A DNA stretch of 64,000 nt from Ostreococcus lucimarinus (taxonomy: Eukaryota), in NCBI GenBank assembly GCA_000092065.1, contig CP000591.1. One strand, 5' to 3'. This document shows positions 53,152-62,874 of this stretch, one piece after another. Each line of letters opens with the position of its first letter. The first letter of the stretch is position 1. Position numbers and translations under genes: made by a program. Below the pieces are notes generated by a model, which worked only from the letters and a program-made list of their open reading frames with translations, was not told where the DNA came from and searched no databases.

Positions 53152-54389
53152 TTACACTCCCGTTACCTTGCCCTGAATGGAGTCTTCATCGGGCAAATCC
53201 TCGAACAGCTTCATCCAGTTCGGAATCCCAGCTCCAGACTTCCAAATCGTACCGTTCTTCGCCACGCCGAAGAAGACGTCGCGAACCGTTGGATCAAAAC
53301 CGGACGATTCGATTTGATTGATGATCCAGCGCTTCCAAGCTCCATTGTCCACAGGCATGAGCTTCAGCTTCTTGTCACCGCCGAGCAGCGCAGCCGCCGC
53401 ACTAGCGGTGAGCTCGGTGGTCTTTGAAGTCTTCGCTTTGCGTCTTCGCTGACCAAACGGCAACTCGTCTCCGGATTCTTCGCCGCTCTCGTCCATGGCC
53501 ACCGGTAAGATGACAATCTTATTCTTCGTCAACTTTTCCTTGAACCTCTCCAAACTTTCGAGGGTTTTTGTGATATGCTCTTCGCTCCCCGCGACGATGA
53601 AGACGCGATACGATCCGCGCAAGCGCGAAAACAACACATTCTTATCGCCGTCGCCGAGCGTCACGCCCAAGCGCCCCAACTCTTCCTCGCGCTCAACTTT
53701 CTGAATGATTTTCTCGCGCCCTTGAAGTTCACCGCGCAATAACACCGAGAACGCGAGGAGCCCGACGGTATTGATTCCTAAATTCGTCACCGTCTCGGTC
53801 AAATCGGGCGCGCCCTCGCCCCCCTGCACCGCCTTGATCAGACGCGTGCCGATGATGAACAAACCCAAACCCGCCCCCGCGGCTAATCCTCCGAATAAAT
53901 AAAGCTTGAAGAATCGAAACGGTTCTTGCGCCTCCGCGCGCAAATTCACCATCGTCGACGCGCCTCGACCTCCCTTCACCGCCGCCGCGACTTCTCCGTA
54001 CTGCGTCGACGCTCGAAACGCGTCCAAATCCGGGTCGCTCGTCAGCACCTTGAACTTCAAATTATGCACGTTCACCGCCGCGATGAGATCGTCCTTCGCC
54101 TCGTCGTACATGTTCATCTTGACGTATCCACACGCTCGATTATAACTCGCCGCCCTGGCCTCGTCTTCGTTCGGTTTCATCTCCAGCGCTCGCGTGAACG
54201 CCCGCGTCGCCGCCTCGTGTTCGCCCCTCTCGAACAATCGCAGTCCCTCGTTCACCGCCGTCGCCGCGTCCGCGTACGACGCGCGCGTCGTCGTCGACGA
54301 CGATTCGTCCGACGCGCGCGTTCGAGTCGCCGTTCGCACGCTCCCCGCGCGTCGTCGTCGCCTCGCGCCCGCGTCGTCCATCGTCGTCG

Positions 54390-54422
<33 letters not shown>

Positions 54423-54531
54423 CGCGCGTCGCGCCGGCGCGTCCCGCGTCGCGCGACGTCGCGCGCGCGCGTCGCCCCGCGCGCGTCGCGACGACCCGCG
54501 GCGCGCTCGCGCGGACGCGCGCCGTCGACAT
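53152..54531 (-). CDS. LPA1: LPA1/REP27-like chloroplast TPR membrane protein (PSII D1 assembly factor)
   Basis: Track start 54600 is TTG; the first ATG is at 54531 (MSTARVRASAPRVV). Transit-like N-terminus with poly-Thr, TPRs (AVNEGLRLFERGEHEAATRAFTRALEMKPNEDEARAASYNRACGYVKMNMYDEAKDDL), two TMs (FFKLYLFGGLAAGAGLGLFII; LGINTVGLLAFSVLL) and a conserved C-terminal domain. The family name is from memory. Confidence 0.6.
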
Positions 54532-54717
54532 CGCGCGATGGGCGACGCGATAAGGCGCGGTGTGACGCCGAGGACGGCGATTTCGTCTTCGTATGGGCAA
54601 ACAGTGTGATTCCTAAACCCCAGGACGGACGCGACGTCCGGACGCGCCGTCGCCGACCGCGCGCGACGCGCCGCAGGTGGCGACGCGCGCGAACGCGTCG
54701 GCGCGAGAAAGCGCGCG

Positions 54718-55692
54718 ATGGCGGCGCGAGCGACGCGCGCGCGACCGGGACGCGCGGTCGAGCGCGCGAGACGCGACGACGCGCGGAAAGGATGGCGAGG
54801 CAGAGGACGCGCGCGGGGCGCGACGAGGACGAAGACGACGACGACGACGACGACGACGGAGACGAGCGAGGAAGAGGAAGCGACGTGGACGCGAGCGAAA
54901 ATCGCGGTGCGACGACGGATCGAGGGCGGGGACGAAGACGTGTACGCGAACGCGCTGGCGAGCGAGGAGGCGACGACGCGGGACGACGACGAGACGCGAG
55001 CGACGACGTCGACGTCGAGCGCGACGCACGCGATGGATGTGTTGGCGTTCAGACGTCTGAGCGCGATGATGAATACGTTTGAGAAGAATGTGGAGACGCA
55101 CGGGATCGCGAGACAGGTGGTGGTGATCACGGCTGGGGCGGATACGCGGGCGTTTCGATTGCCGTTTCCGAGCGGAACGGCGATTTTCGAGTGCGCGGAC
55201 GGGACGGTGCACACGAAAGCGGCAGCCGTGATGAAGAAAGTTGGGGCGAAACCTTCGAAGGGGTGCTCGCACAGGCGCGTGCCGGTGGATGCGACCGCGA
55301 CAGACGCGGCTTATGGTGATTTAGAGGAACGTTTGGAACGCGCGGGATACCGCCCAGACGTGCGCTCGTTGTGGTTGGTGCAAGACGTACACGCGTGGGA
55401 TCACTCGCGGTTGTCGAATTTCATCACCGAAAGTGCGGATTTGATGACAACCGGGAGCGAACTCATCATAGACGCCAGCGCGTTGACGTCGACGGACGAC
55501 ATCATTCGTCGAGAATTTGCGTCAAACGGCGTCATGCCCGAAGTCGTGCGCATCCCCGCCGACGAAGGTCGAGAGCCCATTCGTTTAGTCTTAGGATGCG
55601 CCCAGCGAGTGTCGCTGAAGGAGTCGGAGTATTATCGTGAGCAATTGCGCGCCGCCGAGGACGAGGCTGACGAAGACGGCTTTGAGGACTGA
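54718..55692 (+). CDS. SAM-dependent O-methyltransferase, leucine carboxyl methyltransferase (LCM) superfamily
   Basis: ATG at 54718. QVVVITAGADTRAFRLPFPSGTAIFECADGTVH..K and WLVQDV. Low-complexity T/E/R-rich N-terminus. Confidence 0.65.
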   Translation: MAARATRARPGRAVERARRDDARKGWRGRGRARGATRTKTTTTTTTTETSEEEEATWTRAKIAVRRRIEGGDEDVYANALASEEATTRDDDETRATTSTSSATHAMDVLAFRRLSAMMNTFEKNVETHGIARQVVVITAGADTRAFRLPFPSGTAIFECADGTVHTKAAAVMKKVGAKPSKGCSHRRVPVDATATDAAYGDLEERLERAGYRPDVRSLWLVQDVHAWDHSRLSNFITESADLMTTGSELIIDASALTSTDDIIRREFASNGVMPEVVRIPADEGREPIRLVLGCAQRVSLKESEYYREQLRAAEDEADEDGFED

Positions 55693-55735: not shown

Positions 55736-58700
55736 TTACAACTTTGACTTCTTCCCGTCCTTTTCCTTCTTCTCCTTCTTCTCTTTCTTCTCTTTCTTCG
55801 CCTTCTTCGCCTTCTTCTCTTTCTTAAATTCATGCGTTTTACGCTTTTTGTCTTTCACCTCAGCCTCTGGCGCGTCTTCGTCCGCTTCGGAATCCTCGAA
55901 GACCACTTTTTTGCCTTGCGAGTCGCCGCCGCCTTGCTCCATCCAATCGATCGCCGTGTGATCGCTCGTGGAGTCGAGTGGTGAACTTATAGCTTCAGTT
56001 TCGATCAAATCATCTAGCCCTCTCGGATCAGATGCATTTTGAGCGCCGATACCCTTCTCCCGAAGCACTCGAAGCGTCTTTTGCATGTCAAATTCAGCTT
56101 CTCGTTGCGCTTTGCGCGCGGGCTGCAGCGCGAGCGGACTGTGCATCTCTTTCGCCTTTTCGCGCGATCCAACCACCATTCGTGATGAACGACTGAGCAT
56201 TTTTTGCTCAAATATCGGTAGAGCAAAGTCAAATCCAGAGTTTGGGCCGTGCTTTCGTACTCCATCAACCAAGGTGTCGGCAAGAAGGACGGCGTCACTC
56301 ATGGCTTGATTCGCACCTTGCGCCTTGAATGGAGTCATCGGGTGAGCGGCGTCACCAATCAACGTGACGCGACGCTTTGATTCATCAGTAGGGCGGAGTA
56401 ATACCGGATCGAGCAATTCCCTGTCGTACACTGGGTAGCCCGACATACAATCCAGCGGCGTGTTGCGAAGCAAATCTGGAACAGGGTCATGCCACTGCGC
56501 ACAACGCCGAACTATTTCCTCCTTTAGCGTCGTCGCATCTTTCGTGTATTGACGCGCTGTTTCTTCAGAGCATGGAAAAGATAGCTGCCACATAGTCGAA
56601 GTAGTCGTGAAGGGCATGGCATACAACCGTGTGGCGCCGTCGACCGTCTCAAAAATACGTCGATGCGCGAGCGGTACGTTCATTATCTTCTCATCCACGA
56701 TTCCTAGCACGACACACAATCCAACATAGTTCAGACGATCTCCTGGGAGGTCTAAATGACGTCGCACGGTTGAGAATATCCCGTCCGACCCCACGAGTAG
56801 AGCTCCATCGAGCTCGGTACCATCCGTGGACGCGACGGAGACTCCATTTTCGCGAGCCACAAAGCTCTTGAGCTTGCTATTCCAGCGAATAGTTCCCGGT
56901 TGCACAGCTTCGATGATGCGAGATCGAAGCACTTGACGGGGTATATGAATGAATCGTCCAGAATTTTGCACCTCGCGACGTTCACGCGACTTTGCTCCAA
57001 AAGCCTCTCCGAAAAATCCAATAATGTGCCCCTCTGCGTCAAAGGTGTAATGTGACGTCGAAGGAGCATCGTCTTGAGATATGTCAACGCCCATGGCTTG
57101 TATAGCGTCTTGGGCTTGCACAGTGAGCCCATATCCTTGAGCGCGCGCGTCAAAGCTTTCATCTGACTCCAACACGATGACATCGAATCCTTTGCTCTGC
57201 AATGCCACGGCTGCCGCCGCGCCTCCTATGCCCCCACCAGCGATTATAACTCGTCCACATTTCGAAACGTCGACGGGAGGACCGTATTTTTCATTGTTCG
57301 CGCCGTGTCGTTGCTGCTTGAGATGCTTCACCACACTATGCTGTCCAGCCGTCGTAAACGCCCACTCCAAATTGTTCAACTCTTCATCACTGAACTCATC
57401 CATGAGTCTCTTCACTGATCGAGCCAGCGCGGTAAACAACGCATCGTTTACTTGTCCGGAGTTTGCAAACGTCCAAGCGACGTTAACCAGATCTTGAGCG
57501 TTGAAATTATCCGCTTGGTGCTCGGCCGCGGATGCCAATGCGACAAAGAGAGCCTCGCTGAGTTGGCTTGCTTGGTCAAACGTCCAAACTATGTTGGCGA
57601 TATTCGGCGCATCTAAATCGTTCAGTCGATGATCCAATATCGATTTTCGCGCTGCAACAAAAAGTTTGGCATCATATCGACCGAGTTTTGCAAACGCCCA
57701 CGTGGTATTCACGAGGTCTTGGGTGTTGAAATCAGCCAAGCACCGTTCTGACAGGCTCGCCAACGAAGTGAATAACTTTTCGTCGTGATGACACGCCTTC
57801 CCGAAAGCCCAGGCGGTATTGGCAATATCCTGAGAATTAAACTCACTCGCATTCGCGGTCATTCTGCGCTCGATAGAACGACCGAACTTGGAAAAAAGTT
57901 CGGCGTCCAGATGCCCACATTTGGAAAAAGACCAAACCGTGTTCGTCAAGCCTTGCGCGTTCAAGGCGCTCAGGTGCCGCTCTGCGTGCTTGGCGAGCGT
58001 CGTAAACAATTTTGCGTCGTATTGTCCCGCCTTAGCGAACGCGTAGATGAGATTTGAAAAGTCTTGCGCGTTGAAATCATCCAAGCGTTCTTGCGCCTTC
58101 TGCGACATTGCGCGAAACAAACCAACGTCGACAAAGCCCGACTTTGCGAACCCCCAAGCCGTGTTCGACAAACCTTGCGTGTTGAACTCCCCCAAACGTC
58201 TCTCCACACACCGCGCCAGAGCTTTAAACAGCCTCGCGTCGGCGTGTCCCACCGAGGCGAACGCCCAGCAAGTATTCGTGAGCTCTTGCGAATTAAATCG
58301 CTCCGCGTGTCGCTCCGCCATCCTCGCCAACGCGCTAAACAATCGTTCACACTTGTAATCCGCCTTGGCGAACGCCCACGCAATGTTCGCCAACTCTTGC
58401 CCTCGATCGATCCCTCCCAAGTGTCGCTCTATCGCCTTCGCGAGCGCGGCGAACAACTCCTCGCTCCCTCCTCCCTTGGCCGCGCCGTGCGCCACGTTCG
58501 CCAGCTCCCGTCCCCCCATCTTCGATCGCTCATCCCTCACGAATTCGATCGTGTGCGCGATCAATCGTTCGTGCGCATCATTCATCCCGTCCCCATCGCT
58601 CGAGCTCGCCCGTTCACCGTCGCATCGCATCCGTCCGACGCTCGTCCACACCGCCGACAGGTGAATGTGATTCATCCGTCCCGCGCTCTCGTCTCGCAGC

Positions 58701-59008
58701 GCGTACACCTCGCGCAACGATCGCGCGTTCTTCACGTTCGCCGTCAGCAACGCCGGCGAGGGCGCGTTCCCGCGTCTCGCTCCTCCGCTCCCCCCCGTCG
58801 TCGTTCCCATCGTCGTCATCGCGTTCGTTTTCCTCGCCGCCGGCGCCGGCGTCGCGCCCAGTCCGCACGCCGCCCGCGCGTCCGCGCGCGACATCCCTCC
58901 GACCTCGAGCGCGCGCGCGCGCGCCTTCGCGCGCTCCTTCTTCCCCATCTTCTTTTTCTTCGCCGTCGCCGTCGTCGTCGCGTCGCCGTCGCCGTCGCCG
59001 TCGCCCAT
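55736..59008 (-). CDS. Fusion protein: about 11 tandem 37-aa helical repeats (OPR/HPR/FAST-like, putative RNA-binding) + class-A FAD-dependent monooxygenase + Lys/Glu-rich tail
   Basis: Track start 59017 is GTG; the first ATG is at 59008 (MGDGDGDGD). Repeats at about 57277-58519, e.g. FNSQELTNTCWAFASVGHADARLFKALARCVERRLGE and FNAQDLVNVAWTFANSGQVNDALFTALARSVKRLMDE. FAD domain at about 55990-57255: VIIAGGGIGGAAAAVALQSKGFDVIVLES, GSDGIFSTVRRHL, LIGDAAHPMTPFKAQGANQAMSDA. Tail KKEKKAKKAKKEKKEKKEKKEK. One uninterrupted ORF. Confidence 0.8.
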   Translation of the reverse strand: MGDGDGDGDATTTATAKKKKMGKKERAKARARALEVGGMSRADARAACGLGATPAPAARKTNAMTTMGTTTGGSGGARRGNAPSPALLTANVKNARSLREVYALRDESAGRMNHIHLSAVWTSVGRMRCDGERASSSDGDGMNDAHERLIAHTIEFVRDERSKMGGRELANVAHGAAKGGGSEELFAALAKAIERHLGGIDRGQELANIAWAFAKADYKCERLFSALARMAERHAERFNSQELTNTCWAFASVGHADARLFKALARCVERRLGEFNTQGLSNTAWGFAKSGFVDVGLFRAMSQKAQERLDDFNAQDFSNLIYAFAKAGQYDAKLFTTLAKHAERHLSALNAQGLTNTVWSFSKCGHLDAELFSKFGRSIERRMTANASEFNSQDIANTAWAFGKACHHDEKLFTSLASLSERCLADFNTQDLVNTTWAFAKLGRYDAKLFVAARKSILDHRLNDLDAPNIANIVWTFDQASQLSEALFVALASAAEHQADNFNAQDLVNVAWTFANSGQVNDALFTALARSVKRLMDEFSDEELNNLEWAFTTAGQHSVVKHLKQQRHGANNEKYGPPVDVSKCGRVIIAGGGIGGAAAAVALQSKGFDVIVLESDESFDARAQGYGLTVQAQDAIQAMGVDISQDDAPSTSHYTFDAEGHIIGFFGEAFGAKSRERREVQNSGRFIHIPRQVLRSRIIEAVQPGTIRWNSKLKSFVARENGVSVASTDGTELDGALLVGSDGIFSTVRRHLDLPGDRLNYVGLCVVLGIVDEKIMNVPLAHRRIFETVDGATRLYAMPFTTTSTMWQLSFPCSEETARQYTKDATTLKEEIVRRCAQWHDPVPDLLRNTPLDCMSGYPVYDRELLDPVLLRPTDESKRRVTLIGDAAHPMTPFKAQGANQAMSDAVLLADTLVDGVRKHGPNSGFDFALPIFEQKMLSRSSRMVVGSREKAKEMHSPLALQPARKAQREAEFDMQKTLRVLREKGIGAQNASDPRGLDDLIETEAISSPLDSTSDHTAIDWMEQGGGDSQGKKVVFEDSEADEDAPEAEVKDKKRKTHEFKKEKKAKKAKKEKKEKKEKKEKDGKKSKL

Positions 59009-59046
59009 CGTCGCCACTGCGCGTCGCGCACTGCGCGTTCGGCGTC

Positions 59047-59763
59047 ATGGCGCCGGGCGTCGAGATGGTGCGCGTCGAGCGCGCCGAGCGCGCGTACGAT
59101 CGAGAGAAAGCGCTCGGTCGAGACGCCGCGAGCGTGTTCCCGTCGCTCGCGCGCGACGGCGACGGCGCCGCCGACGGAGACGCGCGAAAAGACGACGACG
59201 ACGCGACGCGCAAAAAGTTTGTCACCGAGAGCGAGCTCGAACGACTTCGCGCGCTCGGCGGGAGCGACGGCGGGGACGCGAGCGGCGCGAGCGACGCGCG
59301 AAACGACGACGCGAACGCGGGTAAACCGCTGTATCAAATCCTGGCCGAGCGCCGGGAAGAGAAAGATCGCGAGTTTCAAGAGCAGTGGGCGTCGATGAAG
59401 GTTGGGAAGAATAAACCGCTGGACGAGGAGGAGGTGGAATTTTTAGATGAAATCGAGAGCGAACGACGGGCGGCGGAGACGAAGAGGAAGCGCGAGGAAG
59501 ACGGTGAGTTAGAGGCGTTTAAACGGGCGCAGCGAGGGGACGATCAGGGAGGGATGACGACGACGAAGGGCGACGGAGAGACGGCGACGACGAGCGCGCC
59601 GGCGGCGGTGGTGGCGAGGAAGCGACCGTCCGCGGGCGTGCGAGCGAAACCGAAGACGGCGATCGCGAGCGAGACGAAGGAGACGGACGATGCGAGCGAG
59701 GGGCTCGGCGGTCTTTTGGGCGATTACGGCTCCGATTCGGACGACGACATCGCGGACTCGTAG
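59047..59763 (+). CDS. FAM192A/PIP30 (NIP30 domain) protein
   Basis: ATG at 59047. KKFVTESELERLR...KPLYQILAERREEKDREFQEQWASMKVGKNKPLDEEEVEFLDEIE, and an acidic C-terminus GDYGSDSDDD. Confidence 0.65.
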   Translation: MAPGVEMVRVERAERAYDREKALGRDAASVFPSLARDGDGAADGDARKDDDDATRKKFVTESELERLRALGGSDGGDASGASDARNDDANAGKPLYQILAERREEKDREFQEQWASMKVGKNKPLDEEEVEFLDEIESERRAAETKRKREEDGELEAFKRAQRGDDQGGMTTTKGDGETATTSAPAAVVARKRPSAGVRAKPKTAIASETKETDDASEGLGGLLGDYGSDSDDDIADS

Positions 59764-59874: not shown

Positions 59875-62874
59875 ATGATCGCATCCTCGCTTGGCGTCGC
59901 CCGAACGTCGTTCGAGCCGCGTCAGAGCGCCGCGGAACGACGAATACGACGCGTTTCTGCGCACCAGTCCACAACCCCCGAAGGCGTTCGCGGATGCGTC
60001 GTCGTGCGACGCCACCGCGGGCGTTCGAGCTCGCGTTGCGTCGCGCGCGCGGTGCATTACGCATGTGATGACGCCACGCCGTCGTGCGTCGCGCGCGATG
60101 CGCACGCGTGCGGACGAAATGGTGCGAGATACGATCCACTCAGGTTGTTGCTTCGGGACGGGACGTCCACGCGCGAGACGACGCGGCGACTGGTGCGATG
60201 TGTGCGATGCGGCGCCGCGGGCGAGAGTCGCGAAAAGAATGAGATGGTAGCGTCGAGCTGTGGGAAAGCGGACGAACGCGTGCGAGGGAAGGTGCGGCGA
60301 GCGTTGCTCGCGAGCGCGGCGAGCGCGGGCGGGTTCGCGGGACGCGCGGGAGCGTTATCGGGAGACGGCGGTTCTGGAGGCGCGGTGGGCGATGGTGGTG
60401 GGGGCGACGACGGTGGTTCGTTCGGTTCAAGTGGAGATAAACCCATATTTGCGTCCAGTGGTCGAAGTGGAGATGGAATTTTGGAGGAAGTGGTGATGCT
60501 TGACGTGCACGGCATGCACTGCGGCGGATGCGCGGCGAGCGTGCGGAAAATCTTGGAGGGCGATGACGCCGTGCGAAGCGCGTCGGTGAATTTGGCCAAT
60601 GAGTCCGCCATGGTACGCATTAATTTAGCGATGGGCAAGCTTGAGGGAGGTGAATTTGAAAATGCCGTGAAGGAGGCGGCAAAGAGTGTCGGCACCAAGT
60701 TGGCTGAGCTCGTCACTGCCGCAGGGTTCCCGACGTCTCTGCGCGACGCTGGTGGAGTCGCTGTTGCGGGAGTTACGGGTGCCGAGGCGACGAAACTAAA
60801 GAGAGACGAACGTTTGCGACGGATTAAAGAAAGCACGCAGCGCGTGATCGTGGCTTGGGCTCTCGCGAGCGCGTGCTTGTTGGGACACGTTTCACATTTT
60901 TTCCACGCGAGCGCGCCGTGGCTCAGAGTCTTGCACAGTAATCCCGTTCACATCACGCTCTCGCTCTTTGCCATGGCAGGACCAGGGCGTCAGATTTTGA
61001 TTGATGGCTGGCAAAGTTTGCGACGAGGAGGTCCGAATATGAACACGTTGGTATCCCTCGGAGCCATGGCATCTTTTTCGATGAGCACGGCGGCCATGAT
61101 GCTCCCAGGCTTAGGTTGGCCCACGTTCTTCGAGGAGCCCGTCATGTTACTAGCATTCGTACTTCTTGGGAGAGCAGTCGAGGAACGTGCCAAGCTTCAA
61201 GCAACGAGTGATATGTCTGCGCTACTGAATCTAGTGCCAGAGACCGCTCGCTTGGTGTCATCGACTTCCACGGCAAACGGAGATGAGCCATACTATCGTA
61301 CAGTTCCGACGTCTGTCATCGAAGTAAAGGATAAAATCATCGTTTTACCTGGAGATAGAATTCCCATCGATGGCACGGTAGTGAGTGGATGCAGTACGGT
61401 GGATGAAGCCGCCATCACTGGCGAGCCAATCCCTCGGCCGAAAAAAGCCGGCGACACGGTAGCGGCGGGAACAGTGAACTGTGATGGCGTTTTGACGATT
61501 GAAGTCGTGTCTTCAGGAGAAGAAACGCAAGTAGCTGGTATCGTTCGCATGGTGGAGTCAGCGCAACAACGCGAAGCGCCAGTGCAGCGACTTGCAGATC
61601 AAGTCTCTGGCAAGTTTGTGTACGGTGTGATGGCAGCGAGCGCGGCGACGTTCACGTTTTGGAGCACCGTCGGCACGAAAGTCTTCCCCGGTGTTCTTGC
61701 GACAGCTGCTTCGGCAACTAATGCACCAATTTTGATTGCACTTCAAATGACGGCGTCAGTCTTAGTCGTTGCGTGCCCGTGTGCTCTTGGTTTGGCGACG
61801 CCGACGGCGGTACTCGTCGGCACGGCGCTCGGCGCCCGCCATGGCCTTCTCATTCGCGGTGGAGACATCTTAGAAAAAGCCAACAATTTAGACACCGTTA
61901 TTTTCGACAAAACTGGAACGTTGACTATTGGTAAACCAGTATTGACGGAAACGCGCACAAGCGGGGGCTTTAGCGACGCTGAAATCATCGCTCTTGCGGG
62001 AGCGGTCGAGCGAAACTGTCGCCACCCGTTGGCGTTAGCCATCACCGAAGCGGCTGATAAGCAAGGAATTCCCCGGCATTCAGTTGATGAAGGAACGTTC
62101 AAGCAGGAGCCCGGCGCTGGAGCGAGTGCTGTGGTGAATAAGAAGCTGGTTTCCGTCGGCACAACCTTCTACATTCAAGGCAACAATACCGTGCCGATGG
62201 AGCTGATCAATGCCGTGGACAACCCAGGTCGCACGCCGGTGTACGTCGGAATCGATGGCAAAATCGTGGGTGTTTTAGAGATGCAAGACGAAATTCGTAA
62301 GGACGCGGCCGAAACCATCAAGCGACTTCATGCGAAGAATATACAAACTATCATGATTTCGGGCGACAGGCTTGAAACGGCCCAAGCAGTAGGCAAACTC
62401 GTGGGCATCGATGAAAAGTACGTATACGGGGATGTACGACCCGAGGGAAAAGCTGAACTCGTACAAGACTTTCAGTCGAAGGGCAAATGCGTCGCAATGG
62501 TCGGTGATGGTATCAACGACGCCGCAGCTTTGGCACAGGCAGACATCGGCATCGCCATGGCGGGCGGCGTCGGCGCCGCAAGCGAAGTCGCTTCCATCGT
62601 CTTGCTCGGCGATAGATTACCGCAAGTCGGCGATGCGATCGACTTGAGCAGAGCAACGTTTAACAAAATTAAGCAGAATCTGTGTTGGGCTTTTGGGTAC
62701 AACCTGATCGGTATTCCGATAGCCGCTGGCGCTTTATTGCCAGCATATGGATTGTCGCTCACGCCATCCGTGGCGGGCGCCATCATGGGATTTTCATCCC
62801 TTGGTGTCATGGGGAACTCTTTACTTTTGAAACTAAAAGGTCGAGAGCTTTCGAAGGCCGAGGAAGATGATTAA
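59875..62874 (+). CDS. PAA1: Copper-transporting P1B-type ATPase, chloroplast PAA1/HMA6-like
   Basis: HMA domain LDVHGMHCGGCAASVRKILE, TGEPIP, CPC motif VVACPCALGLATP, DKTGTLT, HPLA, GDGINDAAALA. Long basic presequence; the start (59875 or a later ATG) is uncertain. Confidence 0.9.
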   Translation: MIASSLGVARTSFEPRQSAAERRIRRVSAHQSTTPEGVRGCVVVRRHRGRSSSRCVARAVHYACDDATPSCVARDAHACGRNGARYDPLRLLLRDGTSTRETTRRLVRCVRCGAAGESREKNEMVASSCGKADERVRGKVRRALLASAASAGGFAGRAGALSGDGGSGGAVGDGGGGDDGGSFGSSGDKPIFASSGRSGDGILEEVVMLDVHGMHCGGCAASVRKILEGDDAVRSASVNLANESAMVRINLAMGKLEGGEFENAVKEAAKSVGTKLAELVTAAGFPTSLRDAGGVAVAGVTGAEATKLKRDERLRRIKESTQRVIVAWALASACLLGHVSHFFHASAPWLRVLHSNPVHITLSLFAMAGPGRQILIDGWQSLRRGGPNMNTLVSLGAMASFSMSTAAMMLPGLGWPTFFEEPVMLLAFVLLGRAVEERAKLQATSDMSALLNLVPETARLVSSTSTANGDEPYYRTVPTSVIEVKDKIIVLPGDRIPIDGTVVSGCSTVDEAAITGEPIPRPKKAGDTVAAGTVNCDGVLTIEVVSSGEETQVAGIVRMVESAQQREAPVQRLADQVSGKFVYGVMAASAATFTFWSTVGTKVFPGVLATAASATNAPILIALQMTASVLVVACPCALGLATPTAVLVGTALGARHGLLIRGGDILEKANNLDTVIFDKTGTLTIGKPVLTETRTSGGFSDAEIIALAGAVERNCRHPLALAITEAADKQGIPRHSVDEGTFKQEPGAGASAVVNKKLVSVGTTFYIQGNNTVPMELINAVDNPGRTPVYVGIDGKIVGVLEMQDEIRKDAAETIKRLHAKNIQTIMISGDRLETAQAVGKLVGIDEKYVYGDVRPEGKAELVQDFQSKGKCVAMVGDGINDAAALAQADIGIAMAGGVGAASEVASIVLLGDRLPQVGDAIDLSRATFNKIKQNLCWAFGYNLIGIPIAAGALLPAYGLSLTPSVAGAIMGFSSLGVMGNSLLLKLKGRELSKAEEDD

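What the first reader, a model, noticed from the sequence alone, without database searches (positions are those of the whole stretch)
55736..59008. Single ORF fusing an array of 37-aa OPR/HPR/FAST-like helical repeats to a class-A flavin monooxygenase
Residues about 167-580 are roughly 11 consecutive 37-aa repeats with the consensus FNxQ(D/E)LxNxxWAFAKxGxxDxxLFxxLAxxxxxRLxx. This is the signature I know from octotricopeptide/heptatricopeptide/FASTK-type organellar RNA-binding repeat proteins. They run without a stop into a complete FAD-dependent aromatic-hydroxylase-type domain (GGGIGG Rossmann motif, GSDGIFSTVR, GDAAHPMTPFKAQGANQAMSD) and then a KKEKK tail. The first Met of the monooxygenase part lies after its GxGxxG motif, so that domain cannot be translated independently with an intact FAD site. 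This supports a true fusion. Tethering a sequence-specific helical-repeat array to a flavin hydroxylase suggests an enzyme guided to a specific RNA or other polymer target, for example base or ribose hydroxylation. I am not aware of a characterised example. The N-terminus (acidic DG repeat plus KKKK) and the Lys-rich tail look nuclear or nucleolar rather than like a transit peptide.
Basis: partly seen in the sequence, partly recalled or inferred. Interest (0 to 1): 0.75.

Follow-up and report, generated by a model that had tools for sequence, protein, structure and literature searches.

The report
Helical-repeat array fused to flavin monooxygenase
A green picoalga encodes one 1090-residue protein that joins an RNA-binding-type helical-repeat array to a flavin hydroxylase; the fusion is real, conserved across many algal lineages and unstudied, and its relatives' extra modules suggest a nucleolar or ribosome-associated enzyme that oxidises a macromolecule.

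Summary
Window 55736-59008 (-) is one uninterrupted ORF of 1090 aa. It has 11 canonical 37-aa HPR/OPR-type repeats (aa 164-575; Pfam FAST_1 E=4e-21) running into a complete class A FAD monooxygenase (aa 576-1010; FAD_binding_3 E=3e-20).

The fusion is conserved at 45-95% identity in Bathycoccus, Cymbomonas, Pycnococcus, Triparma and Symbiodinium, with partial models in haptophytes. It also appears as complete ORFs in transcriptome assemblies.

No orthologue read shows a recognisable signal or transit peptide. Instead they carry Gly/Arg-rich or Lys-rich N-termini. Their C-terminal modules include a LYAR C-terminus-like domain, which in human LYAR sits in the 80S A site, and Tudor/Agenet-like domains.

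The same monooxygenase subfamily is fused elsewhere to a DnaJ-type zinc finger (Bacteroidota, diatoms), to a Bmt2/SAMTOR-family methyltransferase fold, and to leucine-rich repeats.

Best reading, inferred and untested: a non-organellar, ribosome- or nucleolus-associated monooxygenase guided to RNA or a ribonucleoprotein. I found no paper that discusses the fusion.

The parts
55736..59008 (-). Complete single-exon CDS of the HPR-monooxygenase fusion (1090 aa plus stop codon TAA at 55736-55738)
   Evidence: collinear with orthologues over the whole length
58694..59008 (-). N-terminal region, aa 1-105 (pI 11): acidic DG repeat, a KKKK-MGKKER basic motif followed by a confidently predicted helix pair (aa 23-47), a disordered Thr/Gly-rich linker (aa 56-79), and from about aa 85 the first helices of the cap ('SPALLTANVKNA')
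   Evidence: the KKKK(L/M/I)GKKER motif is conserved in 10 of 56 orthologues
58520..58693 (-). Remainder of the degenerate helical N-cap of the solenoid, aa 106-163 ('NHIHLSAVW')
   Evidence: conserved in orthologues; predicted helices 114-129 and 140-158, continuing helices 85-93 and 98-107 of the previous part
57284..58519 (-). Array of 11 HPR/OPR-type 37-aa helical-hairpin repeats, aa 164-575, consensus FNxQ(D/E)LxNxxWAFAKxGxxDxxLFxxLAxxxxxRLxx
55979..57283 (-). Class A FAD-dependent monooxygenase domain, aa 576-1010, with a family-specific C-terminal helical extension
57221..57238 (-). GxGxxG dinucleotide-binding motif GGGIGG (aa 591-596)
   Evidence: largely invariant in 56 orthologues
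56762..56791 (-). 'DG' motif GSDGIFSTVR (aa 740-749)
   Evidence: D742, G743, S746 and R749 invariant
56294..56356 (-). 'GD' motif GDAAHPMTPFKAQGANQAMSD (aa 885-905)
   Evidence: nearly invariant, and shared with the zinc-finger and Bmt2-like fusion relatives
55739..55978 (-). Disordered acidic-then-Lys-rich C-terminal tail (aa 1011-1090, KKEKKAKKAKKEKKEKKEKKEK)
   Evidence: pLDDT below 50; orthologues carry K-rich, Tudor-like or LYAR-C-like modules at this position

Best explanation
The locus is a genuine nuclear gene of a Mamiellales-type green picoalga. It encodes a two-part enzyme.

The first part is an 11-repeat HPR/OPR alpha-solenoid (RESC6-like). I propose that it docks the protein onto a conserved RNA or ribonucleoprotein. 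The most likely target is cytosolic ribosomal RNA or a pre-ribosome in the nucleolus.

The second part is a catalytically intact class A FAD monooxygenase. Enzymes of this class use NAD(P)H and O2 to form a C4a-hydroperoxyflavin. I propose that it hydroxylates an electron-rich aromatic or heteroaromatic group in the docked target. A nucleobase or modified base is the leading candidate.

The Lys-rich N- and C-terminal tracts would act as nuclear or nucleolar localisation and non-specific RNA-affinity elements.

Shown here: the ORF, the two folds, intact cofactor motifs, conservation of the fusion, and the accessory modules of orthologues.

Inferred: localisation, RNA binding, identity of the target, and the chemistry.
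For: Architecture and fold.

Strong constraint on both halves across green algae, stramenopiles and dinoflagellates. Median identity to the window protein is 51% for the repeat array and 70% for the monooxygenase, and repeat-specific residues are conserved between orthologues. This points to a conserved binding partner.

Non-organellar signature. Of 56 orthologues, 19 have Gly/Arg/Lys-rich N-termini and 10 have the KKKK-GKKER motif. The named secondary-plastid orthologues (Triparma, Symbiodinium) show no hydrophobic signal peptide.

Ribosome link. Sixteen of 56 orthologues end in a module whose profile matches human LYAR aa 309-353 (E=1.7e-5). This lies within the LYAR C-terminal segment modelled on ribosomes in the matched entries 6zvh and 6zmi/6zmo; the C-terminus of LYAR occupies the 80S A site.

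Nineteen of 56 end in Tudor/Agenet-like modules (Pfam Tudor_3 7e-5, Agenet 8e-5; KDM4A Tudor about 0.008).

Fusion partners of the same monooxygenase subfamily (shared motifs): a two-CxxCxGxG zinc finger with a very basic linker in Bacteroidota and diatoms, and a Bmt2/SAMTOR-family methyltransferase fold in 11 of 150 representatives. Yeast Bmt2 makes m1A2142 of 25S rRNA.

Closely related repeat arrays are fused to RNA-modifying domains: Peptidase_U32 with RAP, and PseudoU_synth_2. One carries an RRM.

The nearest solved monooxygenases act on N-heteroaromatic 'oxo' rings that resemble nucleobases: NicC, HpxO (urate) and 2,6-dihydroxypyridine hydroxylase.
Against: There is no direct evidence of RNA binding, localisation or activity.

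The repeat region is not basic (pI 6.6).

The closest solved relative, RESC6, stays in protein complexes after RNase treatment (the 8fn4 and 8fni entries are RNase-treated complexes). Such arrays can therefore be protein scaffolds.

The Bmt2-like module is, among solved structures, closest to SAMTOR, a SAM sensor (E=4e-16). Hydroxylase plus methyltransferase pairs are also typical of small-molecule pathways.

Five representatives of the subfamily carry protein-binding leucine-rich repeats, and 61 of 150 have little or no N-terminal extension.

The LYAR-like and Tudor-like modules occur in orthologues, not in the window protein itself, and the Tudor evidence is below Pfam cut-offs.

The searches made here found no class A flavin monooxygenase reported to modify RNA (also, to my knowledge, none is known).

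Bacterial gene neighbourhoods gave no clue.
Confidence: 0.4

Rival explanations
1. A protein-directed oxidase in the manner of MICAL or QhpG. The solenoid, and the LRR, Tudor or zinc-finger modules in relatives, bind a protein partner such as a ribosomal or nuclear protein. The monooxygenase then hydroxylates or oxidises an aromatic or Met side chain of that partner.
Against: The repeat family is otherwise tied to RNA, for example RNA-associating HPR proteins and mitoribosomal OPR/HPR proteins. Sister repeat arrays are fused to RNA-modifying domains. The Gly/Arg-rich N-termini and the LYAR-C-like module point to RNA or the ribosome.
Confidence: 0.2
2. An ordinary small-molecule hydroxylase acting on, for example, a phenolic or N-heterocyclic metabolite. 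Its repeat array serves only for localisation, scaffolding or regulation. In this reading the Bmt2-like fusions are hydroxylase plus methyltransferase pairs acting on a metabolite.
For: All characterised close structural relatives act on small molecules: NicC, HpxO, TetX, TrlE and PhzS. Sixty-one of 150 subfamily representatives have little or no N-terminal extension. Hydroxylase plus methyltransferase pairing is common in aromatic metabolism (my own knowledge).
Against: The monooxygenase subfamily recurs in fusion with four different macromolecule-binding modules. The 400-aa solenoid is conserved at about 50% identity across very distant algae. Nucleolar or ribosome-type accessory modules are present. 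The protein scores far below every NCBIfam equivalog cut-off, and the NicC catalytic His47 aligns with an invariant Gly.
Confidence: 0.2
3. A classical organellar (plastid or mitochondrial) HPR/OPR gene-expression factor. The flavin domain would modify, or redox-sense for, an organellar transcript.
For: The characterised HPR, OPR and FASTK proteins described in the papers read are organellar. All named organisms with the fusion are plastid-bearing algae. The Bathycoccus orthologue is listed in a supplementary table of a catalogue of alpha-solenoid proteins aimed at organellar gene expression. The segment after Met21 of the window protein is Ala/Arg/Thr-rich.
Against: The KKKK upstream of Met21 is conserved, so translation starts at or before it, and the N-terminus then begins with an acidic DG repeat. 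Aa 23-47 form a conserved, confidently predicted helix pair rather than a presequence. The Triparma and Symbiodinium orthologues lack the signal peptide needed for secondary plastids and instead start with RGG/GKG tracts. LYAR-C-like and Tudor-like tails are nuclear or cytosolic modules. There is no RAP domain.
Confidence: 0.1
4. An artefact: two adjacent genes joined by a sequencing or assembly error, or a chance ORF.
For: None found. There are many spurious long ORFs on other frames in this GC-rich window.
Against: More than 60 full-length orthologues share the same order of parts. They include independent genomes, transcriptome assemblies with complete ORFs, and a 95%-identical metagenomic copy. 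The junction sequence is conserved. The whole-chain model is confident (pTM 0.76).
Confidence: 0.01

Closest known systems
HPR/OPR helical-repeat proteins, including T. brucei RESC6 and the OPR proteins mL115, mL116 and mS107 of Chlamydomonas and Polytomella mitoribosomes
   Different: There is no RAP domain and no recognisable organellar presequence. The array carries a flavin monooxygenase, and the orthologues carry nucleolar or ribosome-type accessory modules.
Helical-repeat arrays fused to RNA-acting catalytic domains: PPR-DYW editing deaminases and FASTK/OPR-RAP proteins (my own knowledge), plus the HPR-PseudoU_synth_2 and Peptidase_U32-HPR-RAP proteins found here
   Same: The design principle is the same: a modular solenoid next to a catalytic domain that acts on the bound polymer. 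The HPR-pseudouridine synthase and U32-HPR-RAP proteins have repeat arrays related by sequence to this one.
   Different: The catalytic domain here is a class A FAD monooxygenase. The literature searches made here found no such enzyme acting on RNA, and none is known to me.
MICAL (flavin monooxygenase plus CH and LIM domains, oxidises F-actin methionines) and QhpG (peptidyl-tryptophan dihydroxylase)
   Different: The window protein has no CH or LIM domains. The targeting module is an RNA-type solenoid, and the substrate is unknown.
NicC (6-hydroxynicotinate 3-monooxygenase), HpxO (urate hydroxylase), TrlE, TetX and 2,6-dihydroxypyridine hydroxylase
   Different: Identity is only 20-26%. Scores lie far below the NCBIfam equivalog cut-offs. 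NicC His47 aligns with the invariant Gly627. The subfamily has its own invariant motifs, such as DDAPSTSHYTF, ETVDGxTRxYAMPFT and SGYPVYDR, and an extra C-terminal helical extension.
Uncharacterised sister architectures of the same monooxygenase subfamily: the zinc-finger form (Bacteroidota, about 483 aa; also the diatom Epithemia), the Bmt2/SAMTOR-like form, and the LRR form
   Same: They are 36-47% identical in the monooxygenase domain and share the motifs R.QGY[AG]LT.QQ, IHIPRQ.LR, MPF....MWQ[LM]SFP, SG[HY]PVYDR and GDAAHPM[ST]PFK[GA]QGANQA.
   Different: A different N-terminal module replaces the repeat array. None of these forms carries an informative name in the sources searched, so they give no known function to transfer.
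LYAR (cell growth-regulating nucleolar protein)
   Same: The C-terminal module of 16 of 56 orthologues matches LYAR aa 309-353, within the C-terminal segment modelled on ribosomes; the LYAR C-terminus occupies the 80S A site. Lys-rich tracts are common to both.
   Different: The window protein has only the Lys-rich tail, not the LYAR-like module. It has no LYAR-type zinc fingers.

Membership tests
HPR/OPR helical-repeat family | Two or more tandem repeats of about 37-38 aa that match the HPR/FAST_1 sequence profile | tested here: met
   Eleven repeats at aa 164-575. FAST_1 scores 75 bits against a cut-off of 27.4, and DUF1601 scores 25.6 against 25. RESC6 E=1e-22.
HPR/OPR helical-repeat family | Each repeat folds as an antiparallel helix pair, and the pairs stack into an alpha-solenoid | tested here: met
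HPR/OPR helical-repeat family | Binds RNA | not testable with these tools
   Context only. Related arrays are fused to pseudouridine synthase, U32 and RRM domains. The repeat region has pI 6.6.
HPR/OPR helical-repeat family | Nucleus-encoded and targeted to plastid or mitochondrion | tested here: inconclusive
   No targeting predictor was available. The N-terminus is an acidic DG repeat followed by a conserved KKKK-GKKER helix. Orthologues start with Gly/Arg-rich tracts, and the named secondary-plastid ones show no signal peptide. The sequence argues against organellar targeting but does not settle it.
FASTK family in the strict sense | FAST_1 plus FAST_2 plus a C-terminal RAP (PD-(D/E)XK-like) domain | tested here: not met
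   Only FAST_1 is found. There is no FAST_2 or RAP hit at E<=1.
Class A (single-component, FAD-dependent) flavoprotein monooxygenases | GxGxxG, DG and GD fingerprint motifs within one FAD_binding_3 domain | tested here: met
   GGGIGG at 591-596, GSDGIFSTVR at 740-749 and GDAAHP...QGANQA at 885-902. FAD_binding_3 E=3.2e-20. The motifs are invariant or nearly invariant in 56 orthologues.
Class A (single-component, FAD-dependent) flavoprotein monooxygenases | The p-hydroxybenzoate-hydroxylase-type fold | tested here: met
Class A (single-component, FAD-dependent) flavoprotein monooxygenases | Binds FAD and consumes NAD(P)H and O2 to hydroxylate a substrate | not testable with these tools
   Needs recombinant protein.
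NicC / HpxO / 3-hydroxybenzoate 6-hydroxylase (specific enzymes) | Score above the NCBIfam equivalog cut-off, and conserved catalytic residues | tested here: not met
   The scores are 102-119 bits against cut-offs of 365-500. NicC His47, the residue changed in the H47Q structures 8uiq and 8uiv, aligns with Gly627, which is invariant in the smaller orthologue alignment.
MICAL | Monooxygenase domain followed by calponin-homology and LIM domains | tested here: not met
   No CH or LIM hit.
Bmt2/SAMTOR methyltransferase-fold family | A Bmt2 (PF11968) domain in the protein | tested here: not met
   The domain is absent from the window protein. It is present only in sister monooxygenase fusions such as P0483 and P0540, where it is closest to SAMTOR among solved structures.

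The most novel reading that the evidence does not exclude
This family would be the first flavin-dependent RNA hydroxylase and the first non-organellar HPR/OPR protein. In this reading it is a nucleolar enzyme whose 11-repeat solenoid reads a conserved stretch of cytosolic ribosomal RNA (or another conserved nuclear RNA) and installs a hydroxylated base. The functionally equivalent enzymes in Bacteroidota and diatoms would use a zinc finger as the guide, and those in other protists a Bmt2-like methyltransferase domain. That would imply an unrecognised rRNA modification shared by bacteria and algae.
Probability: 0.25. Interest if true: 0.9.

Novelty: new variant of a known kind. Interest (0 to 1): 0.7.

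Why it matters
If the inferred function holds, three things follow.

- It would add a new chemistry, flavin-dependent aromatic hydroxylation, to the set of RNA- or ribonucleoprotein-modifying enzymes that are guided by modular helical repeats.
- It would show that HPR/OPR arrays work outside organelles.
- It would point to an undiscovered modification on a conserved RNA, probably ribosomal, in ecologically dominant marine algae (Mamiellales, dinoflagellates, stramenopiles), with a related enzyme in marine Bacteroidota.

The family is also attractive for engineering. It is a natural fusion of a potentially programmable solenoid to an oxygenase.

Even if the target turns out to be a protein or a metabolite, the recurrent fusion of one monooxygenase subfamily to four unrelated binding modules remains an unexplained pattern that can be tested.

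Tried and rejected
(1) Bacterial gene neighbourhood of the zinc-finger homologues (Tenacibaculum, Formosa, a Saprospiraceae bacterium). No neighbour is conserved, so it is uninformative. Two other look-ups found no record.

(2) Homology between the algal N-terminal basic helix (KKKK-GKKER...) and the basic linker of the bacterial zinc finger. hhalign gave probability 0.9% and E=0.06, so this is rejected.

(3) The 'HPR protein' of lobster crustacyanin is an unrelated 37-aa coil-helix-coil repeat and is irrelevant here.

(5) I tried to name the window's organism from neighbouring proteins. A 100%-identical copper ATPase exists only in unnamed marine metagenome records. The nearest named orthologue of the fusion is from Bathycoccus prasinos, whose cluster representative is about 61% identical. 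The organism is therefore a Mamiellales-type green alga, and the genus was not determined.

(6) Codon GC3 as a sign of foreign origin. The monooxygenase part has GC3 of 0.49, but the neighbouring PAA1-type gene has 0.59, so it is not an outlier.

(7) NCBIfam gave no specific family name for the bacterial homologues, only provisional 'hypothetical' models below their cut-offs.

(8) Literature searches for the domain combination, for flavin monooxygenases acting on RNA, and for non-organellar HPR/OPR proteins found nothing relevant.

(9) I first read the Bmt2 fusions as a clean link to rRNA. That reading is weakened because the module is closest to the SAM sensor SAMTOR among solved structures.


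Full report
**Observation.** The window holds one uninterrupted ORF on the minus strand, 55736..59017.
- The only ATG upstream of the conserved part is at 59008, giving 1090 aa. An in-frame stop lies 13 codons further upstream, and the stop codon TAA is at 55736-55738.
- Anchoring on the 'WAFAK' tryptophan gives 11 repeats starting at aa 164, 201, 238, 275, 312, 349, 390, 427, 465, 502 and 539. Nine are 37 aa, one is 41 and one is 38. A degenerate helical cap precedes them.
- Independent profiles confirm both halves: FAST_1 E=3.9e-21, DUF1601 E=1e-5, and FAD_binding_3 E=3.2e-20 over aa 587-926.
- The three class A fingerprints are intact: GGGIGG at 591-596, GSDGIFSTVR at 740-749, and GDAAHPMTPFKAQGANQAMSD at 885-905.

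**Folds.** An AlphaFold2 model built on 56 orthologues is confident (mean pLDDT 82.6, pTM 0.76).
- It shows regular helix pairs from aa 166 to 575, then a beta/alpha monooxygenase domain.
- The segments 1-18, 56-79 and 1012-1090 are disordered.
- By sequence, the repeat half matches T. brucei RESC6 (E=1e-22) and the Chlamydomonas mitoribosomal protein mL115. The enzyme half matches NicC (E=6e-23), TrlE, PhzS, TetX and HpxO.
- A 2026 catalogue states that HPR proteins are a subset of the OPR family.

**The fusion is real and old.**
- A protein search returned more than 60 full-length proteins with the same order of parts at 37-95% identity. Named sources are Cymbomonas, Pycnococcus, Triparma and several Symbiodinium species, where the protein is auto-named 'auaG'. 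A partial gene model comes from Chrysochromulina. Fragments or partial models also come from Emiliania, Prymnesium and Tetraselmis.
- Three hits are transcriptome-derived ORFs flagged complete (P0026, P0039, P0045).
- Bathycoccus prasinos has a 1091-aa 'unnamed protein product' in the cluster of P0005.
- The linker 'VDVSKCGR(I/V)..AGGGIGG' and the whole length align collinearly.
- Median identity to the window protein is 51% in the repeats and 70% in the enzyme domain. Repeat-specific residues such as 'KACH' in repeat 7 are conserved between orthologues.
- The neighbours are ordinary green-lineage nuclear genes: LPA1/Rep27, an LCM methyltransferase, FAM192A/Fyv6 and a PAA1-type copper ATPase.

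**Clues to location.** No targeting predictor was available, so I read the termini of the 56 orthologues.
- Nineteen begin with Gly/Arg/Lys-rich tracts, for example 'MSGYNTGFGFGGGRGRGRGRGSGRGG'. Ten, including the window protein, begin with a conserved KKKK-(L/M/I)GKKER motif. The stramenopile (Triparma) and dinoflagellate (Symbiodinium) orthologues show no hydrophobic signal peptide, which they would need to reach a secondary plastid.
- At the C-terminus, 8 have Lys-rich tails like the window protein. Nineteen have one or two Tudor/Agenet-like modules. The evidence for these is below Pfam cut-offs but points the same way from three searches: Pfam Tudor_3 7e-5, Agenet 8e-5, and a profile match to the KDM4A Tudor domain at about 0.008.
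- Sixteen have a module 'WGFxWRRA..L..AAEGG.RRK.LRK.VL..YLRHL'. Its profile matches human LYAR aa 309-353 (E=1.7e-5).
- That stretch lies within the LYAR segment modelled in the matched ribosome entries 6zvh and 6zmi/6zmo. The C-terminus of LYAR, a nucleolar protein implicated in pre-rRNA processing, occupies the 80S A site.
- Three more orthologues carry an unexplained 'DWWK..FDGYTGE.WE.WY' motif.

**The monooxygenase subfamily and its other partners.**
- Searching with the enzyme domain alone shows that the nearest non-repeat relatives (40-42% identity, E about 1e-70) are proteins of about 483 aa from Bacteroidota: Flavobacterium, Tenacibaculum, Formosa and a Saprospiraceae bacterium.
- These, and a diatom protein from Epithemia, carry an N-terminal extension of about 85 aa. 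It has two CxxCxGxG motifs (Pfam DnaJ_CXXCXGXG 5e-4) flanking a very basic linker.
- A scan of 1.8 billion cluster representatives found 506 relatives at E<=1e-30.
- Among the best 150, I counted 11 with an N-terminal Bmt2-family domain (PF11968, 23-42 bits against a cut-off of 20), at least 26 with the zinc finger, 8 with the repeat array and 5 with RNI-type leucine-rich repeats. Sixty-one have short or no extensions and 27 are fragments.
- One Bmt2-like fusion is a single continuous ORF on a 21-kb contig.
- All forms share subfamily-specific motifs.
- Yeast Bmt2 makes m1A2142 in helix 65 of 25S rRNA.
- The fused module is, however, closest among solved structures to SAMTOR, the metazoan SAM sensor of the same Pfam family (E=4e-16). 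The link to rRNA is therefore suggestive and not clean.

**Context from related repeat arrays.** Proteins whose arrays are the next-best matches to this one carry RNA-acting domains.
- One has Peptidase_U32 plus RAP. From my own knowledge, U32 is the family of the RNA hydroxylases RlhA and TrhP. RlhA makes ho5C2501 in 23S rRNA (abstract of PMC8754641).
- Three have PseudoU_synth_2.
- One has an RRM.
- HPR proteins associate with RNA in vitro and are constituents of mitoribosomes.

**Proposed mechanism.** The solenoid docks onto a conserved RNA or ribonucleoprotein. The flavin domain then performs NAD(P)H- and O2-dependent hydroxylation of an electron-rich (hetero)aromatic group in it. The nearest solved enzymes hydroxylate pyridone and purine-like rings, which makes a nucleobase chemically plausible. 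The Lys-rich termini serve nuclear or nucleolar import and general RNA affinity. The ORF, the folds, the motifs, the conservation and the accessory modules are shown. Everything functional is inferred. I give this full reading a confidence of 0.4.

**Rivals.**
- Protein-directed oxidation, 0.2. RESC6 keeps protein partners after RNase treatment. The repeat region has pI 6.6. LRR fusions exist. QhpG shows that this fold can act on a peptidyl tryptophan.
- A small-molecule enzyme with a scaffold, 0.2. All characterised relatives act on small molecules, and many subfamily members have no extension.
- A classical organellar factor, 0.1. This is family precedent, and the Bathycoccus orthologue K8EA36 is listed in a supplementary table of a catalogue aimed at organellar alpha-solenoid factors. 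The termini argue against it.
- An artefact, 0.01.

**Comparison and novelty.**
- The protein meets the sequence and fold criteria of the HPR/OPR family and of class A flavin monooxygenases.
- It is not a FASTK protein, because it has no RAP or FAST_2 domain.
- It is not an equivalog of NicC or HpxO. Its scores are far below the cut-offs, and NicC His47 aligns with Gly627.
- It is not MICAL, because it has no CH or LIM domains.
- In design it resembles PPR-DYW or HPR-pseudouridine synthase proteins, with a new kind of catalytic domain.
- Searches for the domain pair, for flavin monooxygenases acting on RNA, and for non-organellar HPR/OPR proteins found no discussion of it. The only trace is two rows in a supplementary domain table.
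- I rate it a new variant of a known kind. It becomes categorically new only if RNA hydroxylation is demonstrated.

**Limits.**
- The taxon names of most metagenomic relatives are unknown.
- The HMM censuses of accessory modules were built from members of the same set, although they agree with reading the tails directly.

Noticed in passing
window 59008-59047: The ATG of the fusion gene (59008, minus strand) and the ATG of the divergent FAM192A/Fyv6-like ORF (59047, plus strand) are only 38 bp apart. This implies an extremely short bidirectional promoter, overlapping 5' UTRs, or a later true start for the neighbour.
   Followed up: partly
window 53152-54600 (-), 54718-55692 (+), 59047-59763 (+), 59875-62874 (+): The neighbouring genes are an LPA1/Rep27-type photosystem II assembly factor (TPR plus DUF3493), a leucine carboxyl methyltransferase-family protein, a FAM192A/Fyv6-like protein and a PAA1-type chloroplast copper P-type ATPase. 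The ATPase is 100% identical to an abundant but unnamed marine metagenome protein cluster with 203 members.
   Followed up: partly
window 53926-55272 and 58064-59398, both strands: There are many long overlapping ORFs rich in Arg, Ala and Pro on non-coding frames, for example 58064..59398 (+) at 444 aa, antisense to the fusion gene. They look like by-products of high GC content rather than genes.
   Followed up: no
P0232, P0268, P0269 and about 60 others; loci L001-L003: Bacteroidota have a widespread, unnamed protein of about 483 aa. It joins a two-CxxCxGxG zinc finger with a very basic linker to the same monooxygenase subfamily. It has no conserved gene neighbourhood. A diatom (Epithemia, P0221) has the same architecture.
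   Followed up: partly
P0483, P0524, P0530, P0540, P0555, P0559, P0565, P0587, P0588, P0589, P0476; locus L004 6624-8711: These are single-ORF fusions of a Bmt2/SAMTOR-family methyltransferase fold to the same monooxygenase subfamily, from unnamed assemblies. One is labelled 'archaeon' MAG RYH18207.1, which I suspect is a mis-binned eukaryotic contig.
   Followed up: partly
P0462 (Amoebophrya sp. AT5.2, g2397.t1, 2871 aa): One gene model strings together TRIP4/ASC-1 domains (zf-C2HC5, TRIP4_3rd, ASCH), an AlkB-like 2OG oxygenase, the repeat array and the monooxygenase. It may be a merged model. If it is real, it links the family to nucleic-acid repair or ribosome quality-control modules.
   Followed up: no
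P0064 (Chrysophaeum taylorii, 1699 aa): A Peptidase_U32 domain (the family of the RNA hydroxylases RlhA and TrhP, from my own knowledge) is fused to a repeat array and a RAP domain. This is a second candidate for a repeat-guided RNA hydroxylase, using a different catalytic fold.
   Followed up: partly
C-termini of P0027, P0038, P0045, P0048: A short conserved motif 'DWWK(T/S)..F(D/E)GYTGE.WE.WY' replaces the Tudor-like or LYAR-like tail. It is present twice in P0038. It has no convincing Pfam match.
   Followed up: no
P0519, P0526, P0532, P0549, P0579: The same monooxygenase subfamily is fused to RNI-type leucine-rich repeats. P0532 was confirmed with Pfam LRR_6; the other four were identified by reading their N-terminal sequences. 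These are protein-binding modules that fit the protein-directed rival better than the RNA model.
   Followed up: no
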